This document shows, in pieces, positions 3,527-32,415 of a stretch of DNA of 41,102 bases. Each line of letters opens with the position of its first letter. The stretch's first letter is position 1. Location: UHGV virus genome UHGV-0210063; one strand, given 5' to 3'. Made by a program: the position numbers and the translations under genes. The notes beneath the pieces are model-generated. The model made no database searches. It was not told the origin of the DNA and saw nothing but the letters and a program-made list of their open reading frames with translations. This DNA is from a virus.

Positions 3527-3601
<75 letters not shown>

Positions 3602-3604
3602 ATA

Positions 3605-3680
<76 letters not shown>

Positions 3681-3716
3681 ATCAAGTAGCGCGCATTCTA
3701 ATCGCGTGGCCGAAAT

Positions 3717-3801
<85 letters not shown>

Positions 3802-3809
3802 GGACTTGA

Positions 3810-3885
<76 letters not shown>

Positions 3886-3887
3886 AC

Positions 3888-3964
3888 TGGACCGCCACCG
3901 GGGACTCGAACCTCGCACACTCAACTTAAAGGGTTGACGCTCTTTCCTGATGAGCTAGTGGCGG
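3888..3964 (-). tRNA. Atypical tRNA-like gene, anticodon loop CCUUUAA (UUU anticodon, C at position 33)
   Basis: 77 nt; perfect 7-bp acceptor stem C1-G72, D-arm with GG, 5-bp anticodon stem, TTCGAGT T-loop, CCA; non-canonical C33 and one T-stem mismatch. Confidence 0.5.
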
Positions 3965-3965
3965 C

Positions 3966-4041
3966 TGGTGGCCCTTGCTGGATTTGAACCAGCGACCTGG
4001 CGATTATGAGTCGCTCGCTCTCACCACTGAGCTAAAGGGCC
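3966..4041 (-). tRNA. tRNA-Ile2 (anticodon CAU, ileX-like; elongator Met not excluded)
   Basis: 76 nt; closely resembles E. coli ileX as recalled, anticodon loop CUCAUAA. Confidence 0.8.
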
Positions 4042-4235: not shown

Positions 4236-4931
4236 TCAATCTACTTTTGCAACACTTTGCTTTGAAAATGCCGCCTTTTGTTTTGAACGTGTTCTCATTA
4301 CAAACAATAAAGCCTCACTATCAAGTCGGTGAAAAATGTGTTTCATTGCAACCCAGTGACGAGTAAATGTTTTGGACCAGTTTTTAGTTGTCACTCCCGC
4401 CAGTAATGCCAGCTCCTGGTATTCATAACCTTCCCCACCAAAAAGTTCTGCTTTTACTGCCTGCGCCGCCAGCCAGATTAATTTTTTCAGGCGTTCCTGC
4501 GTTTTCCCTGCAATTTTTCTGGTACCGGATTGAGTATTAAATTCATTCCACGCCCACTGTGTTATCGCGATCTGATATTCCCAACAAATACTCCCGCTGT
4601 AACACCACAACAACCAGGCTTTATGATGTTCTTCAAGAGACAGAACAGCCCGCCGCCACGATGATGTCGAAAACTCAACCGGACTGACCAGAGGAATTGA
4701 CGTCCCCTTCGCCAGCGATTGCTTTCCCGGGATTGGTGGATTATCCCGCGTTATCATTTTTCCAGTCACTTCATCGCGGTACCGGATTTTTTTTCGCCTG
4801 TAACGCCCTGTATCGAACATGGCATTCTCTTGCCAGGCTTCAAGCTGACCTTTTGTTGCCCCACTCAAATCAGCGGTGGCGATAATGAGCTGCTCACGCA
4901 CAAACTGTAAATACTGGTTATTCATGCGCAC
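4236..4931 (-). CDS. Putative late-gene antiterminator (Q-like), assigned by position
   Basis: 231-aa ORF between rusA and the tR'-like terminator/tRNAs/lysis genes; no zinc-finger motif recognised. Confidence 0.35.
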   Translation of the reverse strand: MRMNNQYLQFVREQLIIATADLSGATKGQLEAWQENAMFDTGRYRRKKIRYRDEVTGKMITRDNPPIPGKQSLAKGTSIPLVSPVEFSTSSWRRAVLSLEEHHKAWLLWCYSGSICWEYQIAITQWAWNEFNTQSGTRKIAGKTQERLKKLIWLAAQAVKAELFGGEGYEYQELALLAGVTTKNWSKTFTRHWVAMKHIFHRLDSEALLFVMRTRSKQKAAFSKQSVAKVD

Positions 4932-5287
4932 TCCAGTTCTGTGATTTTTATCCCCAGCCGCCCACCAGGAACGAGCTGACCGCGCACAATATTGATTTCA
5001 TCAAACTGCTCGTCGTCTATAAGTAGTCCGGCATGCGTCAGCGCATCCAGTGGTGCCTTCAGGATATTGTCCAGGTCGCGGCGGCGCTTATCCGGTGGCT
5101 CTGCAATAATCTTTATCGCCAGCCTTCCGGACAGGCTTAATTTCAGCCGCTGCTGGCGAACAATTAGCGCCACATCACGGCGATAACGCTTTCCGGCTTC
5201 CGAGATGAAATACGTATTGCCATGACGTCGCCAGTAGGTATTCACCGTCGGCGGGTAAGGCAAAACAAATTCTATGCGTTCAGTCAT
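4922..5287 (-). CDS. rusA: Holliday junction resolvase RusA
   Basis: 121 aa; RusA-like motifs (PPTVNTYWR..., DKRRRDLDN, GGRLGIKITE). Confidence 0.85.
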   Translation of the reverse strand: MTERIEFVLPYPPTVNTYWRRHGNTYFISEAGKRYRRDVALIVRQQRLKLSLSGRLAIKIIAEPPDKRRRDLDNILKAPLDALTHAGLLIDDEQFDEINIVRGQLVPGGRLGIKITELECA

Positions 5288-6271
5288 TCATGCTTTCCAC
5301 TTCAGGACACCCGAATTTCTCGCGTGCATTAAAAAACGAATCAGCAACAACAGCTGGCTGCCGTGTTTTTCTTCAAAATCTTTTACCCCGGCGTGCAGTT
5401 CGTTATGACATTTACGGCACAGCGGAATAACAAACAAATCATCAGCCTTTGTTCCCATCCCTCCCAGTCCATGACCAATGATGTGATGCGGATCATCTGC
5501 CTGATTACCGCACGTCATGCATTTCTGCGTTTTTACCCAACGCGTGTATACAGGCATCTCTTCCCGTTGTGGTTTCTGGCGCTGGAGATACTGAGCCGGT
5601 GACTCCGGATCAACGGCAATGCTGACCACCGTCTTGTCCTGTGGCGGGTTTTGCTGGTGGGCATGAGGCAACGGCGCAAGATTTTTTGTGCGCTGCTTCA
5701 GTATGCTGGTGGCGGTCTGCTCTCCCGGTACGATGTCGCTTTCGCGGTACAAGGAGCGGATTTTTTCCGCACGTAACCCCAGAGAACGACGTAATACTGC
5801 CTCCGGAAGCGCGTCCGCCACCTGATTGCAGACCGCCCACCAGGATAATTCAGCCAGCGACAATTCCCGCTCCTGCGTGCCATTCATTGCATGGCGTATG
5901 ACGTCAATCATCCATGCTGACAGGTTTTGATGAGCAAGTTGCCCGAGTGATTCGGATGTCTGGTCACGCAACTGGTTGTCGCAGTGCCAGCACAACACCA
6001 TCGCGCCGGTACCGTAACGATGTATGACGATTTCACTGTGATGATAGTCACCATGAGGCCACTGGCAGGATTTGACATGACGCAACAGCCAGTCAGACAG
6101 TGCCCCAGCGCCGCCAGCAGCACGAATCACCCGCTCATCGCTGAAAAATGGCAGTAATGATTTATCCTCCGCCAGCGGCTGGCGAACGGCAGGGACGACT
6201 CCGGACGGCAGACCGCGCATGCTTTTCGGTTCAGGCTCCACCAGCACTCGAGGGTTATGAAATACTTGCAT
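5288..6271 (-). CDS. DUF968-like protein with C-terminal HNH-like zinc motif (YdfU-like)
   Basis: C-terminus CMTCGNQADDPHHIIGHGLGGMGTKADDLFVIPLCRKCHNELH; ORF track starts at 6415 but that overlaps the upstream gene, so an internal ATG at 6271 is proposed. Confidence 0.55.
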   Translation of the reverse strand: MQVFHNPRVLVEPEPKSMRGLPSGVVPAVRQPLAEDKSLLPFFSDERVIRAAGGAGALSDWLLRHVKSCQWPHGDYHHSEIVIHRYGTGAMVLCWHCDNQLRDQTSESLGQLAHQNLSAWMIDVIRHAMNGTQERELSLAELSWWAVCNQVADALPEAVLRRSLGLRAEKIRSLYRESDIVPGEQTATSILKQRTKNLAPLPHAHQQNPPQDKTVVSIAVDPESPAQYLQRQKPQREEMPVYTRWVKTQKCMTCGNQADDPHHIIGHGLGGMGTKADDLFVIPLCRKCHNELHAGVKDFEEKHGSQLLLLIRFLMHARNSGVLKWKA

Positions 6272-6344
6272 GGATTCACGGCCCGGCCTAAGGACCACCA
6301 GCCCGAGTTCCGGTACCAGAACAGGTCGAAGTAATATCCGCACG

Positions 6345-6623
6345 TTACCTCCAGATCCGTTGCTGGTATGTGCGGGATGGGCGCGGTGGGCGTTCGGAAT
6401 AAGGGAGCCTGACATAGATTATCCAGTGACGATAATCGAGGCTGAGGGCTTTCTTAATCTCGTATCCGCGTCTGCGATAGTTATGAATTAGCCATTCGGC
6501 CTGTTCTTCAGTACATGGGTCATGCTGGAACCAGTCAGATTTGAAAGTGCGGGAACGCCGCCCGTGCCTGCTGGCAAAGACGGCAGAATCATCAGAATTG
6601 TGTAATTTGGTATCGTGCGCCAT
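6345..6623 (-). CDS. Hypothetical nin-region protein
   Basis: ORF track 6345..6704 begins with TTG inside a terminator; internal ATG at 6623 gives a 92-aa basic protein. Confidence 0.4.
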   Translation of the reverse strand: MAHDTKLHNSDDSAVFASRHGRRSRTFKSDWFQHDPCTEEQAEWLIHNYRRRGYEIKKALSLDYRHWIIYVRLPYSERPPRPSRTYQQRIWR

Positions 6624-6693
6624 CGGTTGTCTCTGCTGGCGCAGCAGGTGCCAGTTGTTCAGGCTGGCGTGCGAATTGTAAACCAGAATGCCA

Positions 6694-6722
6694 GGAAAAA
6701 ACAAAACCCGCCGAAGCGGGTA
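6694..6722 (-). terminator. Rho-independent terminator (UUCG tetraloop) after lipoprotein gene
   Basis: Minus strand ACCCGC-TTCG-GCGGGT followed by TTTTGTTTTTT. Confidence 0.6.
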
Positions 6723-6919
6723 TGCTAAAACAAACTGAAAGTAATATACCGGACTTGTAAAGGAACGATAGAATAATTATTGGATTAAACCCTGACTCAA
6801 TCCAGATTTCATAGGCAACAACTACGGACTAATCATCACAGTCATGTTTGATAGACTTAGTCCACATTGGGTGAGGGTTTACGGCGTTTTCACTAATAAT
6901 TTATCGTCCAAGCTATACA

Positions 6920-7312
6920 CTACTGCCCTGTTTTAACGAAGTTTTTAAAGGAAACAACTGCCTGATAGGGGTTTGGTTGACAGCCAAACATATTATCGCA
7001 AAAAGGCTTGATGAAAATTCTTGAGGATCCATCTTCATTTGGCATTTTACTCACTTGATAAGCGAGGAATGGACTATTTGGAGAGGGATTATAAGTGGAA
7101 ATTAGCGTGTCTGTCGCCGTTTGAATTTTCCATGAGGAATTATTAGCCAACCAGAATTGCGCTCGTTTCCAATAAAAGTCACATTGCTTTTCATCATTAC
7201 ATGTTAGTGGCTTCATTGCTTCTGCTTTCAACGCTGGATCGACCTTTGCTGCACACCCTCCCAACATTACTGTTGCAATCATTACACCTGCGACTAAAAC
7301 AAGTTTCTTCAT
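6920..7312 (-). CDS. Lipoprotein, function unknown (moron)
   Basis: 130 aa; signal peptide MKKLVLVAGVMIATVMLGGC with lipobox; about 41% GC by eye; flanked by hairpin terminators. Confidence 0.7.
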   Translation of the reverse strand: MKKLVLVAGVMIATVMLGGCAAKVDPALKAEAMKPLTCNDEKQCDFYWKRAQFWLANNSSWKIQTATDTLISTYNPSPNSPFLAYQVSKMPNEDGSSRIFIKPFCDNMFGCQPNPYQAVVSFKNFVKTGQ

Positions 7313-7455
7313 CTCCCTGCCCCATCAATAAAAGTTCGGTTCTCTAATAACTAGAGTTAATCAACGGAAAAAACGCCGAAGCGGGTTAAGTGCGGGTGCG
7401 TTGAGGATGCCTGACACATCAGAGGTGGCGAGGGATTTCTCCCCCGCCAGGTCTC

Positions 7456-7611
7456 TTACTCCTCAGGTTCGTAAGCTGTGAAGACAGCGACCTCCGTCTG
7501 GCCGGTTCGGATTCGTACCTCGCAGAGGTCTTTCCTCGTTACCAGTGCCGTCACAATGACGGTTAAACAGATGACGATCAGGGCGATTAACATCGCCTTT
7601 TGCTGCTTCAT
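7456..7611 (-). CDS. hokD: Hok/Gef-family type I toxin (HokD/RelF-like)
   Basis: 51 aa MKQQKAMLIALIVICLTVIVTALVTRKDLCEVRIRTGQTEVAVFTAYEPEE, recalled as matching E. coli HokD; ORF track gives an in-frame upstream extension to 7668. Confidence 0.8.
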   Translation of the reverse strand: MKQQKAMLIALIVICLTVIVTALVTRKDLCEVRIRTGQTEVAVFTAYEPEE

Positions 7612-7902
7612 AGCCTGCTTCTCCTTGCCTTTCGGCACGTAAGAGGCTAACCTAGATTTGCCGTTCATAGATTGAGCCTCAGATTAATGTTAAGCGTCTT
7701 GCAGGACGCGTAATGTTAACTGGGGCTTTTCTCTATCTGCCTTTTGGTGTTCATGCCTGAGACAGATAGCCTCAAGCACCCGCTGCAATTCTACTTAACT
7801 CTCCTTTTCCCGCAAACCGTTTTTATCCCCAGCGGCAAATCGAATACACCACCAGCGCCACAGCCATTGCGATTCCTGCCGTTGTAAATGCCTCAGGCCA
7901 GG

Positions 7903-8418
7903 TCATCGTAAAACATCCTCCACGCTTATCAGTCCATTTCGTTTCAGGTAATCCATCGCCATCTCCGGTAATTTGCAGTCTAGATTAGCTTTTTTCAGTT
8001 GACTGACCAGTCGTTTAACCCACATTGTTAATTCGCCAACCTGATTACTGGATGCTAGTGGATTGTCGGCTTTACCCAGAATGACAGCACAGCAGGCCTC
8101 TTTGAGTACCCAATCAACAGCATCTTTCCATGCTCCTGTTTCGACTGGTGGATTCTCACGCTTTACCTGTTCATAAAAGCGCACGGCTTTAACCAGTCCT
8201 TCTGATATCACAGGGACTGGCGGGGTAGTGAATAAGGCCTGAATCTCATAGCCCGGCCTGTCGTTGCACCCCTCTTTTGTCGGTACATATTTCCAGTCAC
8301 CAACCCACATCTTCTCCTGAAAGTCCGTAACGCCTTTTTTCACGTAGCGATATCGCCATGCAACTGGTTTTGCCTGCCCTGCCGTTTCATGCCCTTCCTG
8401 ATAATTAATCTCGCTCAT
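7903..8418 (-). CDS. Hypothetical nin-region protein (171 aa)
   Basis: Intact ORF with translationally coupled neighbours (ATGA overlaps). Confidence 0.5.
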   Translation of the reverse strand: MSEINYQEGHETAGQAKPVAWRYRYVKKGVTDFQEKMWVGDWKYVPTKEGCNDRPGYEIQALFTTPPVPVISEGLVKAVRFYEQVKRENPPVETGAWKDAVDWVLKEACCAVILGKADNPLASSNQVGELTMWVKRLVSQLKKANLDCKLPEMAMDYLKRNGLISVEDVLR

Positions 8419-28816: not shown

Positions 28817-29172
28817 CAGTGAGTGACCTCTTCAAAGGTACAGTTAAAATCGGTATACATGGCATTATCCGAAATGCTCCACTCCCTGCAGACAACCCGG
28901 ACAGTCCTGTTGTGTTTTGGCGGACGCCACAAAAAAGCACGAATCCCGGCATGACGGGATAAAAAACTGTCCAGCGCGGCACGGGAATATTCATCTGTGA
29001 CACGAAATACCGGTTTAAACGTTTTCAGATCCGCATTCAGACCACCAGCCCGTCGCTGTTCATATCCGTCACCAAACTTTACCGTAATAACTGATGGCTT
29101 TCGTGTCGTCTCCATCCCCTCACGGGGGATCCAGTTAAAAACTTCAGGCTCAGGCACTGTACAATCCTCCAT
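28816..29172 (-). CDS. M: Minor tail protein M
   Basis: Lambda M-like (VKFGDGYEQRRAGGLNADLKT...); ORF track start 29202, internal start 29172 proposed. Confidence 0.7.
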   Translation of the reverse strand: MEDCTVPEPEVFNWIPREGMETTRKPSVITVKFGDGYEQRRAGGLNADLKTFKPVFRVTDEYSRAALDSFLSRHAGIRAFLWRPPKHNRTVRVVCREWSISDNAMYTDFNCTFEEVTH

Positions 29173-32100
29173 CCCGACGCGATGACTGCATAATTGACAC
29201 AACCCTGCTGTCGATCAGATCCACCAGTCCCCTGGCTGAGCGCGCATCTATCTCGCCATTGCTCCCTTGATTCTGAATGCTGATGTGATACACGGGAGAA
29301 TAAACAAATCCACCGCCACCATTCACATTTCCAATGGCCCTGACCCCAAGAGAGCCGTCCGCTGCCCGTGTCAGTGGCATGATTGCTTCAGGCCCGGCCT
29401 CGCCCATCAACCCGGCACCTTTCGCAAAAGCAAAATACGTCGGTGTATCCACAATAGTGTTACTGTAAGCACTCAGATTTGCCGATGTGTAAACACCACC
29501 TTTTGCGTTTGCCACTGCCCCCGAAATCCATCCGCCGACCGTACCAAGCCACCCTCCGGCACCGGAGAGTGATTTCAGTCCGTTAACAATGGCTGCATTC
29601 ATCAGAATTTTTGAAACTTCCCGGAGAACTGAACTCCCCCAGTTCCTCCAGTCCACAACATTCCCGGCCAGTGCATCGGAAATATTTGATACCAGCCCGT
29701 CCATCGTGGAAACGACAGCATCTGCCGCCTGTGAAGCATAATCGGTGGCACTGTCTGCCCAGTTGGTCAGTCCCTCCTGGAGTCCGGCATTCCAGTTATT
29801 ACGTAAAGCATCGGCCTTTGCATAATAATCCTGCTGATCACTGAGACGCTCTTCCAGATATTTTTTATTCAGTTCTTTCTCCTGTTTCCACAGGGCTTCT
29901 TCAATTTCTCCGGCCTGATACTGTCTCAGCAGCTCGTTATTTTTCTGCTCAAACGCCTGCCGGATACTCCACATTTCCTGGAGTCGTTCACGCATCCGTG
30001 AGCCTTCACCATATCCCAGCAACTGCGCTTCGTCAGATGCCCGGGCACTGGCATTACTGTCCGCCAGACTGCTCTCATACGCAGCAAGCTGCTCACGAAT
30101 CTTTTTCTGGTCGATGAGTGCTGCATTCTGCAAAAGCGTTTTTTTCTGCGCTTCTGACAGGGTTGATAATTCGCCCTGACTGACCTGATATTTCATCTTA
30201 GCCAGTTCAGTATTCTGCCCTGCCAGTGCTATTTGTTCTTTTTGCTGTTTAATCAGCCGTTTATAAATATCTTCTGTTTTTTCCGCTTCGGTCTTTTTAT
30301 GCGCTTTGGGTTTATTTACCTGGTTATTTCGCCAGGCATCCAGTGAGGTATTGATATAATTCTGTCTGGCTGTCTGATACGCCTCTCCCACAAAGCCGAG
30401 ATCATCCGCAGCATAACCCAGGCGGGCACGCTCACGGGCTTCCCCCTTCAGGCGGGACAGAGCCAGTTCGCGCTCGCTGTTATTCAGTGCGGTCTGCTGT
30501 TTATCATCCAGGGTTGCCTGTGGTAGCCGTAACGGTACATTCACCAGCCCCTGTCGCTGCTGAAGTAATTCATTACCGAGCCCGAGAAGGCGATTAAACT
30601 CGGTATGCTGCCCATTCATGATCAACAGGGACTGATACGCTTTGTTTTGTTCCGCGGCCTGTTGACGGATCAACGCCACCCGTCGCTCCTCCAGCCCGGC
30701 AAGCACATCCTGAATGGATTGCGCTTTGCCCTGCATTTGTGTGAGACGGGACTGTTCAACTGCCAGTTGATTTGTTGCTTCTGCAAGCCCTTCTGTGACA
30801 GTTTTTACCGACGTCATGTGGTTAATCATAAAACCGTTATCGGTTGTCCAGCCCGGGTTTGCCAGCACATACTGATAGCCAGCAATTTTTTCCTGTAAGG
30901 ATTTAATCTTACTTTTCTGCTCGTCAATTAACCTGTTTTGCTCATCAAGTGCCTGCCGCGTCTTTTCCTCATTATCTGACGCTTCAGGAAGCGACATTGC
31001 CGACGTTTTCTGGCGAATTTCGTCGATTGTTGCGGCATACTGGCGTGCAGATTCTCTGGCCTGCTCCTGATTCTGATACATCGTGTACCAGGCCGTCGCC
31101 CCCAGCATGACGAGTCCCGGCACACCACCAACCAACCCCAGCGCACCACTTAACAGACGACTCCCCACTGACGTGACAGTATTCAGCGTTGTCTGTGCCG
31201 CTGTTCTGGCCGCAATATTACGGGTAAGTGACGCCTGGGCAGCTGTCAGCTTCGCTTCTGCTGCGGCCTGCCTTTCGGTACCGCGAGCAGCAACAACCGC
31301 CTGTTGCGCACGATAAACCGCCGCACGCGCCCTGGCGGTTGCTATCTGTGTCCCCCGAAGTTGCGCTTCAGCAAGAGCCACTTCGTTTCTGGCTGCAGTA
31401 ATTAATCCAGCAGTTGCAGATCCAGCAGACGACGCCATATTGCCAAAATATCGGGCTACCCCGACGGCAACCAGTGCGCCAGCTGCAGCAGCCACGGTAT
31501 CAATATTGTCTGCAACACCATTCAACACCCCGGTGAGTGTCTTTGTCACTCCGCTTGCCTCGTTCGCACCACCAACCCAGGCCATAAAGGCGTTTTCAAC
31601 TTTGGTTGCAGAGGATGAAACAGTATCAGGCATTGCTGCATATTCATCACGCAACGCCCCAAGCTGACTAATCAGTGCAGGAACAACCTTATCGGCGGTC
31701 AGTTTTCCGTTATCCGCCATGGCCTTCAGATCCTTACGGGCAACACCCATTCCCGCAGCCAGCGCACGAATAACACGATCGCCGTTCTCATTCACAGAGT
31801 TAAATTCTTCACCGCGCAGCACTCCCTGCGCCAGTGCCTGACTGAACTGCGTGATCACCGAACTGGCTTCTGCTGTACTGGCACCGGATAATTTCAGGCC
31901 CGTGGAGATCGCCTCGGTGACTTTCAGTACCTCCTCAGAACTGTAGCCATACTCCCGCATGGAAGCTGCAGAGCGGGCAAAAAGGCTGGCGTTATCAGAA
32001 AACGCCGTTCCCGTTCTCTGGCTGATTGCCATTAATTCACGTTGTGATACCTGAAAATCATCACTGGACTGTGAAGCCTGCTTCAGACGGGCATTTACTG

Positions 32101-32383
32101 AATTCCACTCATCGGCGAGAGAAATAAGATGACCGGTAGCAAAAGCTCCGGCAAATGCCCCCGCCATATTCAGTGCCGAAGATTTAGCTGTATTTATCTG
32201 ATCCGTCACTTCTGCCAGTGCACGCCGCATTTCACGGGATGCAGCAGCGGACTGCCGGCCTCCGTTCTGCATGGTACGGTAGTAATCCTGCCCCATACGC
32301 GAAGCCCGGGAGATCTCTGACTGGAATGACCGGGAATTTGCCGAGATTTTAATAATCAGTTCACGTAATGTCGCCACACTCAT
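29150..32383 (-). CDS. H: Tail tape measure protein H
   Basis: 1077 aa, largely alpha-helical, after the G/T chaperone genes. Confidence 0.9.
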   Translation of the reverse strand: MSVATLRELIIKISANSRSFQSEISRASRMGQDYYRTMQNGGRQSAAASREMRRALAEVTDQINTAKSSALNMAGAFAGAFATGHLISLADEWNSVNARLKQASQSSDDFQVSQRELMAISQRTGTAFSDNASLFARSAASMREYGYSSEEVLKVTEAISTGLKLSGASTAEASSVITQFSQALAQGVLRGEEFNSVNENGDRVIRALAAGMGVARKDLKAMADNGKLTADKVVPALISQLGALRDEYAAMPDTVSSSATKVENAFMAWVGGANEASGVTKTLTGVLNGVADNIDTVAAAAGALVAVGVARYFGNMASSAGSATAGLITAARNEVALAEAQLRGTQIATARARAAVYRAQQAVVAARGTERQAAAEAKLTAAQASLTRNIAARTAAQTTLNTVTSVGSRLLSGALGLVGGVPGLVMLGATAWYTMYQNQEQARESARQYAATIDEIRQKTSAMSLPEASDNEEKTRQALDEQNRLIDEQKSKIKSLQEKIAGYQYVLANPGWTTDNGFMINHMTSVKTVTEGLAEATNQLAVEQSRLTQMQGKAQSIQDVLAGLEERRVALIRQQAAEQNKAYQSLLIMNGQHTEFNRLLGLGNELLQQRQGLVNVPLRLPQATLDDKQQTALNNSERELALSRLKGEARERARLGYAADDLGFVGEAYQTARQNYINTSLDAWRNNQVNKPKAHKKTEAEKTEDIYKRLIKQQKEQIALAGQNTELAKMKYQVSQGELSTLSEAQKKTLLQNAALIDQKKIREQLAAYESSLADSNASARASDEAQLLGYGEGSRMRERLQEMWSIRQAFEQKNNELLRQYQAGEIEEALWKQEKELNKKYLEERLSDQQDYYAKADALRNNWNAGLQEGLTNWADSATDYASQAADAVVSTMDGLVSNISDALAGNVVDWRNWGSSVLREVSKILMNAAIVNGLKSLSGAGGWLGTVGGWISGAVANAKGGVYTSANLSAYSNTIVDTPTYFAFAKGAGLMGEAGPEAIMPLTRAADGSLGVRAIGNVNGGGGFVYSPVYHISIQNQGSNGEIDARSARGLVDLIDSRVVSIMQSSRRDGGLYSA

Positions 32384-32389
32384 TCTCCG

Positions 32390-32415
32390 GACGAAAAAAA
32401 CCGCCGAAGCGGTTA
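32390..32415 (-). terminator. UUCG-tetraloop hairpin plus T-run between T and H (attenuator/terminator)
   Basis: Minus strand ACCGC-TTCG-GCGGT followed by TTTTTTT. Confidence 0.45.

What the first reader, a model, noticed from the sequence alone, without database searches (positions are those of the whole stretch)
6694..7385. Terminator-bracketed lipoprotein gene in the nin region
A 130-aa protein with a clear lipobox (MLGGC) is encoded in an AT-rich island. It is bracketed by two hairpin terminators with UUCG tetraloops, so it looks like an independently transcribed insertion between a hokD-like gene and a DUF968-like gene. Small phage lipoproteins in such positions include superinfection-exclusion factors (Cor, Llp) and serum-resistance factors (Bor), but this sequence resembles neither as far as I can recall.
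Basis: partly seen in the sequence, partly recalled or inferred. Interest (0 to 1): 0.55.

Follow-up and report, generated by a model that had tools for sequence, protein, structure and literature searches.

The report
Mobile prophage lipoprotein cassette beside hok/sok
This is a real 665-bp add-on gene cassette (a phage "moron") that sits in the terminator of a hok/sok toxin-antitoxin locus and encodes a probable outer-membrane lipoprotein from a widespread but unstudied family; it is a fairly ordinary kind of prophage cargo whose actual job is still unknown.

Summary
The 130-aa lipoprotein ORF is real (window 6920..7312, minus strand). It has a lipobox (MLGGC, Cys20) and Ala at +2. It lies in a low-GC, 665-bp insertion (6722..7386). 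Related phages and 2,489 E. coli genomes have the uninterrupted hokD-terminator-rem junction; 255 of 5,426 genomes carry the cassette. Only the downstream hairpin (6706..6721) is a convincing terminator. The upstream copy is a crippled repeat with a 3-bp stem. The downstream neighbour is a rem-like gene, not DUF968.

Relatives 57-85% identical sit at five other prophage positions: tape-measure/gpM, gpI/gpJ, after ant, after ParDE near sieB, and a degraded remnant. A 42%-identical relative is the main cargo of 2.5-4 kb ColE1 plasmids.

Best reading: a stand-alone envelope-protection moron, probably entry exclusion (about 0.3 for that function). Function is untested.

The parts
6722..7386 (-). 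The whole inserted cassette (665 bp): crippled hairpin copy, leader, lipoprotein gene and 3' region
   Evidence: Filled versus empty site alignment. Start-to-start spacing of the flanking direct repeat is 665. GC is 0.375-0.42 against 0.5-0.6 in the flanks.
6920..7312 (-). Lipoprotein CDS, 130 aa, PHROG 16082 (RefSeq WP_000737636.1)
   Evidence: ORF list. PHROG 16082 matches full length at E 2.6e-84. dN/dS <=0.1. Intact in 55 of 56 viral loci.
7253..7312 (-). Signal peptide and lipobox (residues 1-20: MKK, hydrophobic core, MLGGC; Cys20 codon at 7253-7255)
   Evidence: PROSITE-type lipobox match, +2 = Ala. Cys20 is invariant in alignments A3 and A4.
7313..7367 (-). Leader conserved across unrelated insertion contexts. 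It holds the Shine-Dalgarno-like GGGG(C)AGGGAG and a degenerate counterpart (AGTTATTAG) of the TGnTAGGAT extended -10-like motif seen in relatives
   Evidence: Alignment A6 and flank listing. No consensus promoter found.
7368..7386 (-). Upstream copy of the hairpin repeat, crippled (ACCCGCTTCGGCG then TTTTTT; 3-bp stem)
   Evidence: Repeat D1. No stable hairpin in the fold, z -0.6. Present in this form in all 54 E. coli upstream sequences that contain it.
6696..6721 (-). Intact intrinsic terminator (ACCCGC-TTCG-GCGGGT plus TTTGTTTTTT). This is the hok terminator of the empty site and now ends the cassette
   Evidence: Terminator scan; fold -14.3 kcal/mol, z -2.7; the same hairpin is in empty-site phage 813R8.
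6722..6919 (-). 198-nt non-coding 3' region that always travels with the gene in E. coli. It has a 69-nt indel variant bounded by a 16-nt inverted repeat (6786-6801 / 6866-6881)
   Evidence: Found in the same 255 genomes and 261 places as the CDS. Inverted repeat I1. Length variants 198 and 129 nt. Fold z -2.2. No Rfam match.
7392..7783 (-). Upstream neighbour: complete hok/sok type I toxin-antitoxin locus. mok/hokD ORF 7456..7668; sok/leader Rfam hit 7606..7781; tac 7770-7783; fbi 7392-7406
   Evidence: Pfam HOK_GEF E 3e-23. Rfam RF01794 at 112 bits. tac/fbi duplex -25.1 kcal/mol.
6345..6623 (-).
   Evidence: Annotated in L001 and L003. PHROG 1212 E 7e-37.
5288..6343 (-). DUF968 / YdfU-family HNH protein, followed by RusA (4922..5287) and Q (4236..4931)
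   Evidence: Pfam DUF968 E 1.4e-63; annotations.

Best explanation
The feature is a moron: a 665-bp horizontally mobile cassette that recombined into the terminator hairpin at the 3' end of the hok mRNA gene in the nin region of a lambdoid prophage.

It encodes a lipoprotein precursor. Shown from sequence: a lipobox with Ala at +2. Inferred from the E. coli Lol sorting rule: after lipidation at Cys20 the protein is sent to the inner leaflet of the outer membrane. The roughly 110-residue periplasmic domain is a compact alpha/beta (helix-grip-like) module with two invariant CX5C cysteine pairs, which probably form disulfides.

In the E. coli lineage the upstream hairpin is crippled and the -10-like element is degenerate. 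I therefore infer that in a lysogen the gene is transcribed mainly by read-through from the constitutive hok promoter, and during lytic growth from antiterminated early transcription. Transcripts would end at the intact hairpin at 6706-6721.

No partner gene travels with it, so the protein acts on its own. The mechanism I commit to, which is inferred and untested, is that it protects the carrier cell at the envelope. It would bind an outer-membrane or periplasmic component and block an entry step of incoming phage, or possibly of bacteriocins. It is not tied to the receptor used by its own phage's J protein.

My probabilities: cassette and insertion anatomy about 0.9; outer-membrane lipoprotein about 0.8; read-through expression about 0.45; entry-exclusion function about 0.3. 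The single confidence figure given (0.4) is for the statement as a whole, and the untested functional step pulls it down.
For: Insertion:
- Empty versus filled alignment; flanking 19-nt repeat; low GC.
- Empty junction in 2,489 genomes, cassette in 255 of 5,426.
- In 56 of 56 E. coli viral loci the gene is 96-100% identical and lies upstream of rem/DUF968 wherever that side is present. hok/sok is found upstream wherever the contig extends that far. The flanking rem and DUF968 genes vary from 83 to 100% identity.

Mobility: relatives 57-85% identical sit at other positions.
- Between the tape-measure gene and gpM.
- Between gpI and gpJ.
- Just upstream of gpI and gpJ, together with a second lipoprotein gene.
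- After arc/ant.
- After ParDE, near sieB and the repressor.
- In a degraded prophage remnant.
- About 75-85 nt of leader, including the same hairpin, moves with the gene.

Real protein:
- omega <=0.1.
- 55 of 56 copies intact.
- Cys20, 38, 44 and 105 invariant and Cys111 nearly invariant.

Lipoprotein:
- Lipobox in the window protein and in 127 of 147 family representatives; Asp never at +2.

Fold:
- AF2 pLDDT 84 overall, above 90 for most of the mature part.

Expression:
- Crippled upstream hairpin.
- tac/fbi of hok are intact and lie immediately upstream.

Protective role, by association only:
- Neighbours are hok/sok, ParDE, SieB, the arc/ant immunity region, GmrSD/McrA-type restriction genes and tail-tip genes, as for cor.
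- A 42%-identical homologue is the main cargo of 2.5-4 kb ColE1-type plasmids.
- Family members are fused to periplasmic PDZ or LysM modules.
Against: - The J receptor-binding C-terminus of this phage is unrelated to those of Pantoea phages with 73-85% identical lipoproteins. This argues against a Cor-like block of the phage's own receptor.
- Guilt by association is weak, because all these sites are general hot spots for accessory genes.
- The read-through model rests on a negative promoter scan. That scan also fails to find the hok promoter, which must exist, so an unrecognised own promoter is possible.
- The crippled hairpin plus its U tract may still terminate some transcripts.
Confidence: 0.4

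Rival explanations
1. Orphan immunity protein. The lipoprotein neutralises a toxin that acts in the periplasm, such as a bacteriocin or a type VI secretion effector (for example a peptidoglycan hydrolase). Prophages and small plasmids carry it as stand-alone protection.
For: - It is a periplasmic, probably disulfide-bonded lipoprotein, as many such immunity proteins are (general knowledge).
- It is carried as the main cargo on ColE1-type plasmids.
- LysM (peptidoglycan-binding) and PDZ fusions occur in the family.
Against: - No toxin or effector gene is adjacent in any of about 12 contexts examined.
- There is no sequence or profile match to any immunity family.
- The TplEi match is no better than many unrelated folds.
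Confidence: 0.17
2. Cor/Llp-like receptor blocker. The lipoprotein binds and inactivates the outer-membrane receptor used by its own phage. This prevents superinfection and stops released virions from being lost on lysed cells.
For: - In Pantoea and Enterobacter prophages the gene lies among tail-tip genes (gpI/gpJ, tape-measure/gpM).
- cor lies beside the tail genes of HK022 in the same way.
- It is predicted to be an outer-membrane lipoprotein.
Against: - The J C-terminal domains of phages with 73-85% identical lipoproteins are unrelated to the window phage's J.
- In E. coli the gene is about 16 kb from J, in the nin region.
- The family also occurs on plasmids and chromosomes without phage tails.
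- There is no similarity to Cor beyond the signal peptide.
Confidence: 0.1
3. Bor/Iss-like lysogenic-conversion factor. It is an outer-membrane lipoprotein that raises host fitness in animals, through serum or complement resistance or adhesion, rather than defending against phage.
For: - It has the same general form as lambda bor: a small prophage lipoprotein moron (PMC3594210).
- Carriers include human, bovine, poultry and canine isolates and the pathogen EAEC 042.
Against: - There is no similarity to Bor.
- Close relatives occur in plant-associated and environmental Pantoea and Phytobacter, and in metagenome contigs of unidentified origin. A vertebrate-specific role does not explain these.
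- No host enrichment was tested.
Confidence: 0.1
4. General envelope or physiology factor. The family would be a housekeeping-type periplasmic binding module, for example a lipid- or protein-binding helix-grip domain like BamC or Flpp3. The phage copy would modulate envelope biogenesis or stress responses, or affect Hok action.
For: - The fold resembles BamC-N, Flpp3 and START/Bet v1-like ligand binders.
- A chromosomal PDZ-fused member lies next to yfgM-der.
- The family is very large.
Against: - Context is not conserved among the distant members sampled; most lie in mobile or accessory regions.
- Only 4.7% of E. coli genomes carry the gene.
- The fold scores are too low to infer homology.
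Confidence: 0.1
5. A decaying or non-functional ORF that merely hitch-hikes beside hok/sok.
For: - It is annotated only as hypothetical.
- One of 56 copies is truncated, and frameshifted variants exist.
Against: - Synonymous sites are saturated while dN is 0.09-0.29, and omega is <=0.1.
- It is conserved across genera and insertion contexts.
- 55 of 56 copies are intact.
- The AF2 fold is confident.
Confidence: 0.02

Closest known systems
Phage morons in general (Juhala/Hendrix concept; reviewed in PMC3594210), e.g. HK97 gene 15 in the tail operon
   Same: - It is extra DNA absent from close relatives and has a deviating GC content.
- It has its own terminator.
- It is inserted between genes of an operon in the same orientation.
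- Relatives sit in the tail operon, as HK97 gp15 does.
   Different: - An own promoter is not demonstrable in the E. coli copy.
- The upstream boundary is a crippled duplicate of the target's terminator hairpin.
- HK97 gp15 is an unrelated protein.
Lambda Bor / Iss outer-membrane lipoprotein
   Same: It is a small prophage-encoded lipoprotein with a lipobox, predicted to go to the outer membrane and to be expressed from a prophage as accessory cargo.
   Different: - There is no sequence similarity.
- Genome position differs: bor lies next to the lysis genes.
- The protein is larger and has four conserved cysteines.
Cor (HK022, phi80, N15) and Llp (T5) receptor-blocking lipoproteins
   Same: - All are lipoproteins carried by siphophages.
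- Several relatives of this gene lie beside tail-tip or receptor-binding genes, as cor does in HK022.
   Different: - Only the signal peptide aligns with Cor.
- There is no linkage to one J receptor-binding type.
- The family extends to plasmids and chromosomes.
Flpp3 (DUF3568, Francisella) and the BamC N-terminal domain
   Different: - Sequence identity is 11-15% and TM is only 0.38-0.46.
- There is no Pfam DUF3568 hit.
- The CX5C pairs are specific to this family.
- This is a resemblance in fold class only.
PHROG 16082 (and distantly PHROG 4186)
   Same: The protein matches PHROG 16082 over its full length at E 2.6e-84, so it is already catalogued as a phage protein family.
   Different: The family has no annotated function, so membership names the protein but explains nothing.

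Membership tests
Moron (definition in PMC3594210) | Extra DNA compared with closely related phages | tested here: met
   Empty-site phages 813R8, Evi and 640R1. Empty junction in 2,489 genomes against the cassette in 255.
Moron | [quoted passage not shown] | tested here: met
   GC 0.375-0.42 against 0.50-0.60.
Moron | Own terminator | tested here: met
   Hairpin at 6706-6721 with a U tract. In E. coli it is identical to the target's hok terminator. Relatives have other terminators downstream of the gene.
Moron | Own promoter allowing expression from the repressed prophage | tested here: inconclusive
   No consensus sigma-70 site in any context. A conserved TGnTAGGAT / TGGTAAAAT motif is present in relatives but degenerate in E. 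coli. The scan also misses the hok promoter.
Bacterial lipoprotein (Lgt/LspA substrate) | N-terminal signal peptide ending in a lipobox [LVI][ASTVI][GAS]C | tested here: met
   MKK, a hydrophobic core and MLGGC at residues 16-20. Cys20 is invariant. 127 of 147 family representatives have a lipobox.
Bacterial lipoprotein, outer-membrane sorted | No Asp at +2 (Lol avoidance signal absent); actual localisation | not testable with these tools
   +2 is Ala here and is never Asp in the 127 representatives. Localisation itself needs fractionation.
Bor/Iss (Pfam Lambda_Bor) | Sequence homology to lambda Bor | tested here: not met
   No Pfam hit at E <=0.1. BLASTP against lambda Bor gives no alignment at E <=100.
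Cor superinfection-exclusion lipoproteins (PHROG 1119) | Homology of the mature protein to Cor | tested here: not met
   The PHROG 1119 hit covers residues 1-44 only, at E 0.007, with no stretch passing on its own. BLASTP against HK022 Cor finds nothing. hhalign aligns only the signal peptide and lipobox region, probability 64%.
Cor/Llp-type function | Co-inheritance with a particular receptor-binding protein | tested here: not met
   The last 250 aa of J in the window phage are unrelated to those of L008, L067 and L077, although the lipoproteins are 73-85% identical.
T5 Llp | Sequence or structural homology to Llp | tested here: inconclusive
   No family annotated as Llp appeared in the Pfam or PHROG scans, and no Llp chain appeared among the top PDB fold matches. 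No direct pairwise comparison with an Llp sequence was run.
DUF3568 / Flpp3 | Sequence-family membership | tested here: not met
PHROG 16082 | Full-length profile match | tested here: met
   E 2.6e-84, residues 1-130 against profile positions 1-130 of 130.
hok/sok type I toxin-antitoxin (neighbour and insertion target) | Hok ORF, sok/leader RNA, and tac-fbi long-range pairing | tested here: met
   HOK_GEF E 3e-23. RF01794 at 112 bits, above the gathering score of 59. tac/fbi duplex -25.1 kcal/mol.

The most novel reading that the evidence does not exclude
The protein is the phage-borne representative of an unrecognised, very large family: at least 1,141 clusters at 50% identity with no Pfam or NCBIfam model. 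Its members are lipid-anchored periplasmic domains with two CX5C cysteine pairs and a helix-grip-like fold. On this reading the domain is a portable, single-gene envelope-defence module shared by prophages, tiny ColE1 plasmids and chromosomes, sometimes fused to PDZ or LysM. It would work by a mechanism different from Cor, Llp or Bor, for example by inhibiting a peptidoglycan-degrading or channel-forming step of phage or bacteriocin entry. Its cassette would spread by recombination at a shared terminator hairpin. In E. coli it would have become wired to the constitutive hok promoter.
Probability: 0.25. Interest if true: 0.6.

Novelty: new member of a known kind. Interest (0 to 1): 0.35.

Why it matters
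If the protein is an exclusion or immunity factor, it would add a new, widespread family to the short list of characterised prophage lipoproteins that alter phage or bacteriocin susceptibility. It is a single gene, it is present in about 5% of complete E. coli genomes, and relatives are on small plasmids. That is relevant to host-range prediction in phage therapy. The anatomy is also a clean example of how morons move. The same hairpin marks the cassette boundary in three unrelated genomic contexts. Here the insertion re-uses, and partly disables, the terminator of a hok/sok locus, which may couple expression of the cargo to a toxin-antitoxin promoter. As it stands, it is a well-delimited but functionally uncharacterised moron.

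Tried and rejected
Searches that found nothing useful:
- Pfam, NCBIfam and PADLOC scans of the protein gave no family. Scanning 69 diverse family members found only the PDZ domains of fused relatives.
- The PDB sequence profile search gave nothing significant.
- Literature searches for WP_000737636, WP_032201349 and EC042_RS11650 gave no papers.
- Genome-wide locus scans with diverse alignments failed because no stretch was conserved enough. Contexts were obtained through exact-protein look-ups instead.
- The Rfam scan of 6300-8000 found only sok; there is no RNA family in the 3' region.

Readings considered and rejected:
- o-spanin (Rz1-like): the gene is not in the lysis cassette, has no Rz partner and is not proline-rich.
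- Colicin lysis protein: the protein is far too large.
- Chance ORF: excluded by the selection analysis.
- The promoter-like site inside the ORF (7117 to 7088) is treated as chance, since about 2 such sites are expected in shuffled sequence.

Full report
**1. What is in the sequence**

The ORF is on the minus strand at 6920..7312 and encodes 130 aa. It begins MKKLVLVAGVMIATVMLGGC. A PROSITE-type lipobox (MLGGC) ends at Cys20, and residue +2 is Ala. GC falls to 0.375-0.42 across 6700-7300, against 0.50-0.60 on either side.

The gene order on the minus strand is: replication genes, small nin-like ORFs, hok/sok, the lipoprotein gene, a 92-aa rem-like gene (6345..6623), DUF968 (5288..6343), RusA, Q, then a tRNA cluster.

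**2. It is an insertion with precise ends**

Megablast against deposited phages found two with the whole region (vB_EcoS-689R5 and vB_EcoM-606R7). Several others (813R8, Evi, 640R1) match only the two flanks.

The alignment and the empty-site sequence show that the empty site has one hairpin between hokD and rem: ACCCGCTTCGGCGGGTTTTGTTTTTT on the minus strand. The filled site has 665 extra bases bounded by a 19-nt direct repeat of that hairpin sequence (6703-6721 and 7368-7386, 17 of 19 matching).

Among 5,426 complete E. coli genomes:
- the uninterrupted junction is present in 2,489;
- the lipoprotein gene is present in 255, in 261 places, all chromosomal;
- the 198-nt non-coding 3' region is found in the same number of genomes and places, so it is part of the unit.

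**3. The two 'terminators' are not equivalent**

The downstream copy (6706-6721) is a 6-bp G+C stem with a UUCG loop and a U tract. It is the only terminator-like site the scan reports, and it folds at -14.3 kcal/mol, z -2.7.

The upstream copy reads ACCCGCTTCGGCG followed by TTTTTT. The 3' arm of the stem is lost, which leaves CGC-UUCG-GCG. The hairpin is absent from the centroid structure, and the segment is no more stable than shuffled sequence (z -0.6). This crippled form is present in all 54 E. coli upstream sequences that contain it.

**4. The insertion target is the 3' end of a complete hok/sok locus**

- The 70-aa mok/hok ORF (7456..7668) matches HOK_GEF at E 3e-23.
- Rfam finds sok at 7606..7781 with 112 bits.
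- The 5' element GCGGGUGCUUGAGG (7783 to 7770) pairs with CCUCAACGCACCCGC (7406 to 7392) at -25.1 kcal/mol. This corresponds to the tac/fbi long-range pairing described for hok mRNAs (my knowledge of the Gerdes model).
- The fbi element ends only a few bases before the hairpin.

The cassette therefore sits exactly where the hok transcript should terminate. It leaves hok regulatory pairing intact but replaces a strong terminator with a weak one.

**5. The gene moves as a unit**

In 56 of 56 E. coli-type viral contigs the gene is 96-100% identical and lies upstream of rem/DUF968 wherever that side is present. hok/sok is found upstream wherever the contig extends that far. The neighbouring rem and DUF968 genes vary from 83 to 100% identity. 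More distant copies are elsewhere:

| Host or source | Identity | Position |
|---|---|---|
| Enterobacter hormaechei | 81% | between the tape-measure gene and gpM |
| Pantoea ananatis | 73% | between a gpI-like gene and gpJ |
| IMG/VR contig L067 | 79% | followed by a second lipoprotein gene, then gpI and gpJ |
| Pantoea sp. | 85% | after arc-arc-ant, then another small lipoprotein, before gpJ |
| Yersinia enterocolitica | 57% | after ParD/ParE, opposite the early-left operon, near sieB and the repressor |
| Phytobacter | 69% | in a degraded prophage remnant |

About 75-85 nt upstream of the start codon is conserved between these unrelated contexts. In Enterobacter and in Pantoea L077 this stretch begins with the same hairpin, (A/G)CCCGCTTCGG(C/T)GGGTTTT. 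It is followed by a TGnTAGGAT motif that looks like an extended -10 (TGGTAAAAT in Yersinia).

In E. coli the corresponding bases are AGTTATTAG, which lack both the TG and the final T. The consensus promoter scan finds nothing upstream of the gene in any context. However, it also fails to find the hok promoter, so it is insensitive.

My inference, with moderate confidence, is this. The ancestral cassette was terminator-promoter-gene-terminator. It entered the hok site by recombination within the shared hairpin. In E. coli it is now largely expressed by read-through from the hok promoter in lysogens, and from antiterminated early transcription in lytic growth.

**6. The protein**

- *Selection.* Synonymous sites are saturated between genera while dN is 0.09-0.29. 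Where dS can be estimated, omega is 0.015-0.095.
- *Integrity.* 55 of 56 E. coli-type copies are intact and 39 are identical to the window protein.
- *Conserved residues.* Across 69 diverse relatives, Cys20 (lipidation), Cys38, Cys44, Thr73 and Cys105 are invariant. Pro35, Trp48, Ala51, Trp54 and Cys111 are nearly invariant. This gives two CX5C pairs.
- *Structure.* AlphaFold2 gives a confident model: pLDDT 84 overall, with only the signal peptide below 50. The order of elements is short helix, strand, long helix 41-58, four strands, C-terminal helix 115-128.

**7. Family**

The protein matches PHROG 16082 over its full length at E 2.6e-84; that family has no known function. It matches PHROG 4186 weakly. 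The Cor PHROG matches only over the signal peptide.

An exhaustive profile search finds 1,141 clusters (50% identity) at E <=0.001 and 532 at E <=1e-10. There is no Pfam or NCBIfam model for the domain.

Twelve of the 69 sampled members carry a C-terminal PDZ domain; I had deliberately included the longer proteins in that sample. Acinetobacter plasmid relatives (29% identical) have an N-terminal LysM domain. 127 of 147 representatives have a lipobox, and none has Asp at +2.

A 42%-identical homologue (WP_032201349.1) is the main non-backbone gene of a 2,519-bp ColE1-type plasmid in Citrobacter and of 3,988-bp mobilisable plasmids in Salmonella.

Distant members sampled lie next to transposases, next to GmrSD/McrA-type restriction genes, in another phage early region, and once beside chromosomal yfgM-der. 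No partner gene recurs.

**8. Comparison with known lipoproteins**

- Direct BLASTP against lambda Bor and HK022 Cor gives no alignment.
- The profile comparison with Cor aligns only the signal peptide and lipobox region.
- A Cor-like model predicts linkage to a receptor-binding type. However, the last 250 residues of J in the window phage are unrelated to those of the three Pantoea-type phages, whose lipoproteins are 73-85% identical.
- The feature meets three of the four criteria in the published description of a moron (PMC3594210): extra DNA, deviating GC and an own terminator. The own-promoter criterion is inconclusive.

**9. Interpretation**

*Shown:*
- a real, selected lipoprotein gene on a 665-bp mobile cassette inserted in the hok terminator;
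- a widespread unnamed family;
- no homology to Bor or Cor.

*Inferred from established rules:*
- lipidation, and Lol-dependent sorting to the outer membrane;
- periplasmic disulfides.

*Inferred from context only:*
- a stand-alone envelope-protective role, most likely exclusion of incoming phage or bacteriocins (about 0.3);
- rivals are orphan immunity to periplasmic toxins (about 0.17), a Cor-like block of the phage's own receptor (about 0.1), a Bor-like host-fitness factor (about 0.1) and a general envelope role (about 0.1).

Nothing here is very surprising for a lambdoid prophage. The more interesting aspects are the size and complete obscurity of the family, its presence as near-sole cargo on tiny plasmids, and the hairpin-mediated insertion, which may wire the gene to a toxin-antitoxin promoter.

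**10. Verdict**

This is a new, uncharacterised member of the known class of moron-encoded prophage lipoproteins. Interest 0.35.

Noticed in passing
window 7392-7783 (minus strand): A complete hok/sok locus. It has the mok/hok ORF, an Rfam sok hit at 112 bits, and a 14-bp tac/fbi long-range pairing (-25.1 kcal/mol). Its native terminator has been displaced 665 nt downstream by the cassette. Whether hok post-segregational killing still works at filled sites is an open question.
   Followed up: partly
window 6345-6623 (minus strand): A 92-aa rem-like gene (PHROG 1212; annotated 'toxin to Rem' in deposited phages) lies between the cassette and DUF968. The mechanical ORF list extends both it (119 aa from a TTG) and DUF968 (375 aa) beyond the annotated starts.
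   Followed up: partly
window 6786-6881: The 3' region has a 69-nt indel polymorphism among E. coli copies: 198 or 129 nt from the stop codon to the hairpin. It is bounded by a 16-nt inverted repeat and contains its own GGACTAA...TTAGTCC hairpin. There is no Rfam match. It may be a remnant of a small mobile element or of a second gene.
   Followed up: partly
L026 4583-5920; L012 1-331: Two E. coli copies have insertion sequences right at the cassette's upstream edge. In L026 an IS10-like element is inserted just before the crippled hairpin. In L012 an IS transposase gene abuts the start codon and replaces the leader.
   Followed up: no
L067 6374-6784; L077 6374-6721: In two Pantoea-type phages the gene overlaps a second lipoprotein gene (136 aa and 115 aa), and the two companions look different from each other. 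This suggests clusters of lipoprotein morons upstream of gpI/gpJ.
   Followed up: no
window 32401-32412 (minus strand): The hairpin core CCGCTTCGGCGG also occurs just upstream of the tape-measure gene (29150..32383). In Enterobacter the homologous cassette lies on the other side of the tape-measure gene, between it and gpM.
   Followed up: no
window 3527-4041 (minus strand): A cluster of six tRNA genes (Gly-TCC, Thr-TGT x2, Tyr-GTA, Lys-TTT, Met-CAT) lies downstream of Q. Related phages carry three or four tRNAs at this spot, in different combinations.
   Followed up: no
whole window: From ORF sizes and positions the layout looks like a circularly permuted, complete lambdoid phage genome: lysis genes at about 1.6-3.0 kb, Q/nin/replication at 4-11 kb, the immunity region at about 11-12 kb, an integrase-sized ORF at 17.4-18.4 kb, and tail-to-terminase genes at 20-41 kb, all on the minus strand. 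Only the Q-to-hok region and J were actually checked.
   Followed up: no
protein collection cluster: The 90%-identity cluster holding this lipoprotein (1,137 members) also contains many 70-aa Hok/Mok proteins. This is apparently a clustering artefact caused by partial or fused gene calls that span both genes, so cluster size overstates the number of lipoprotein sequences.
   Followed up: no
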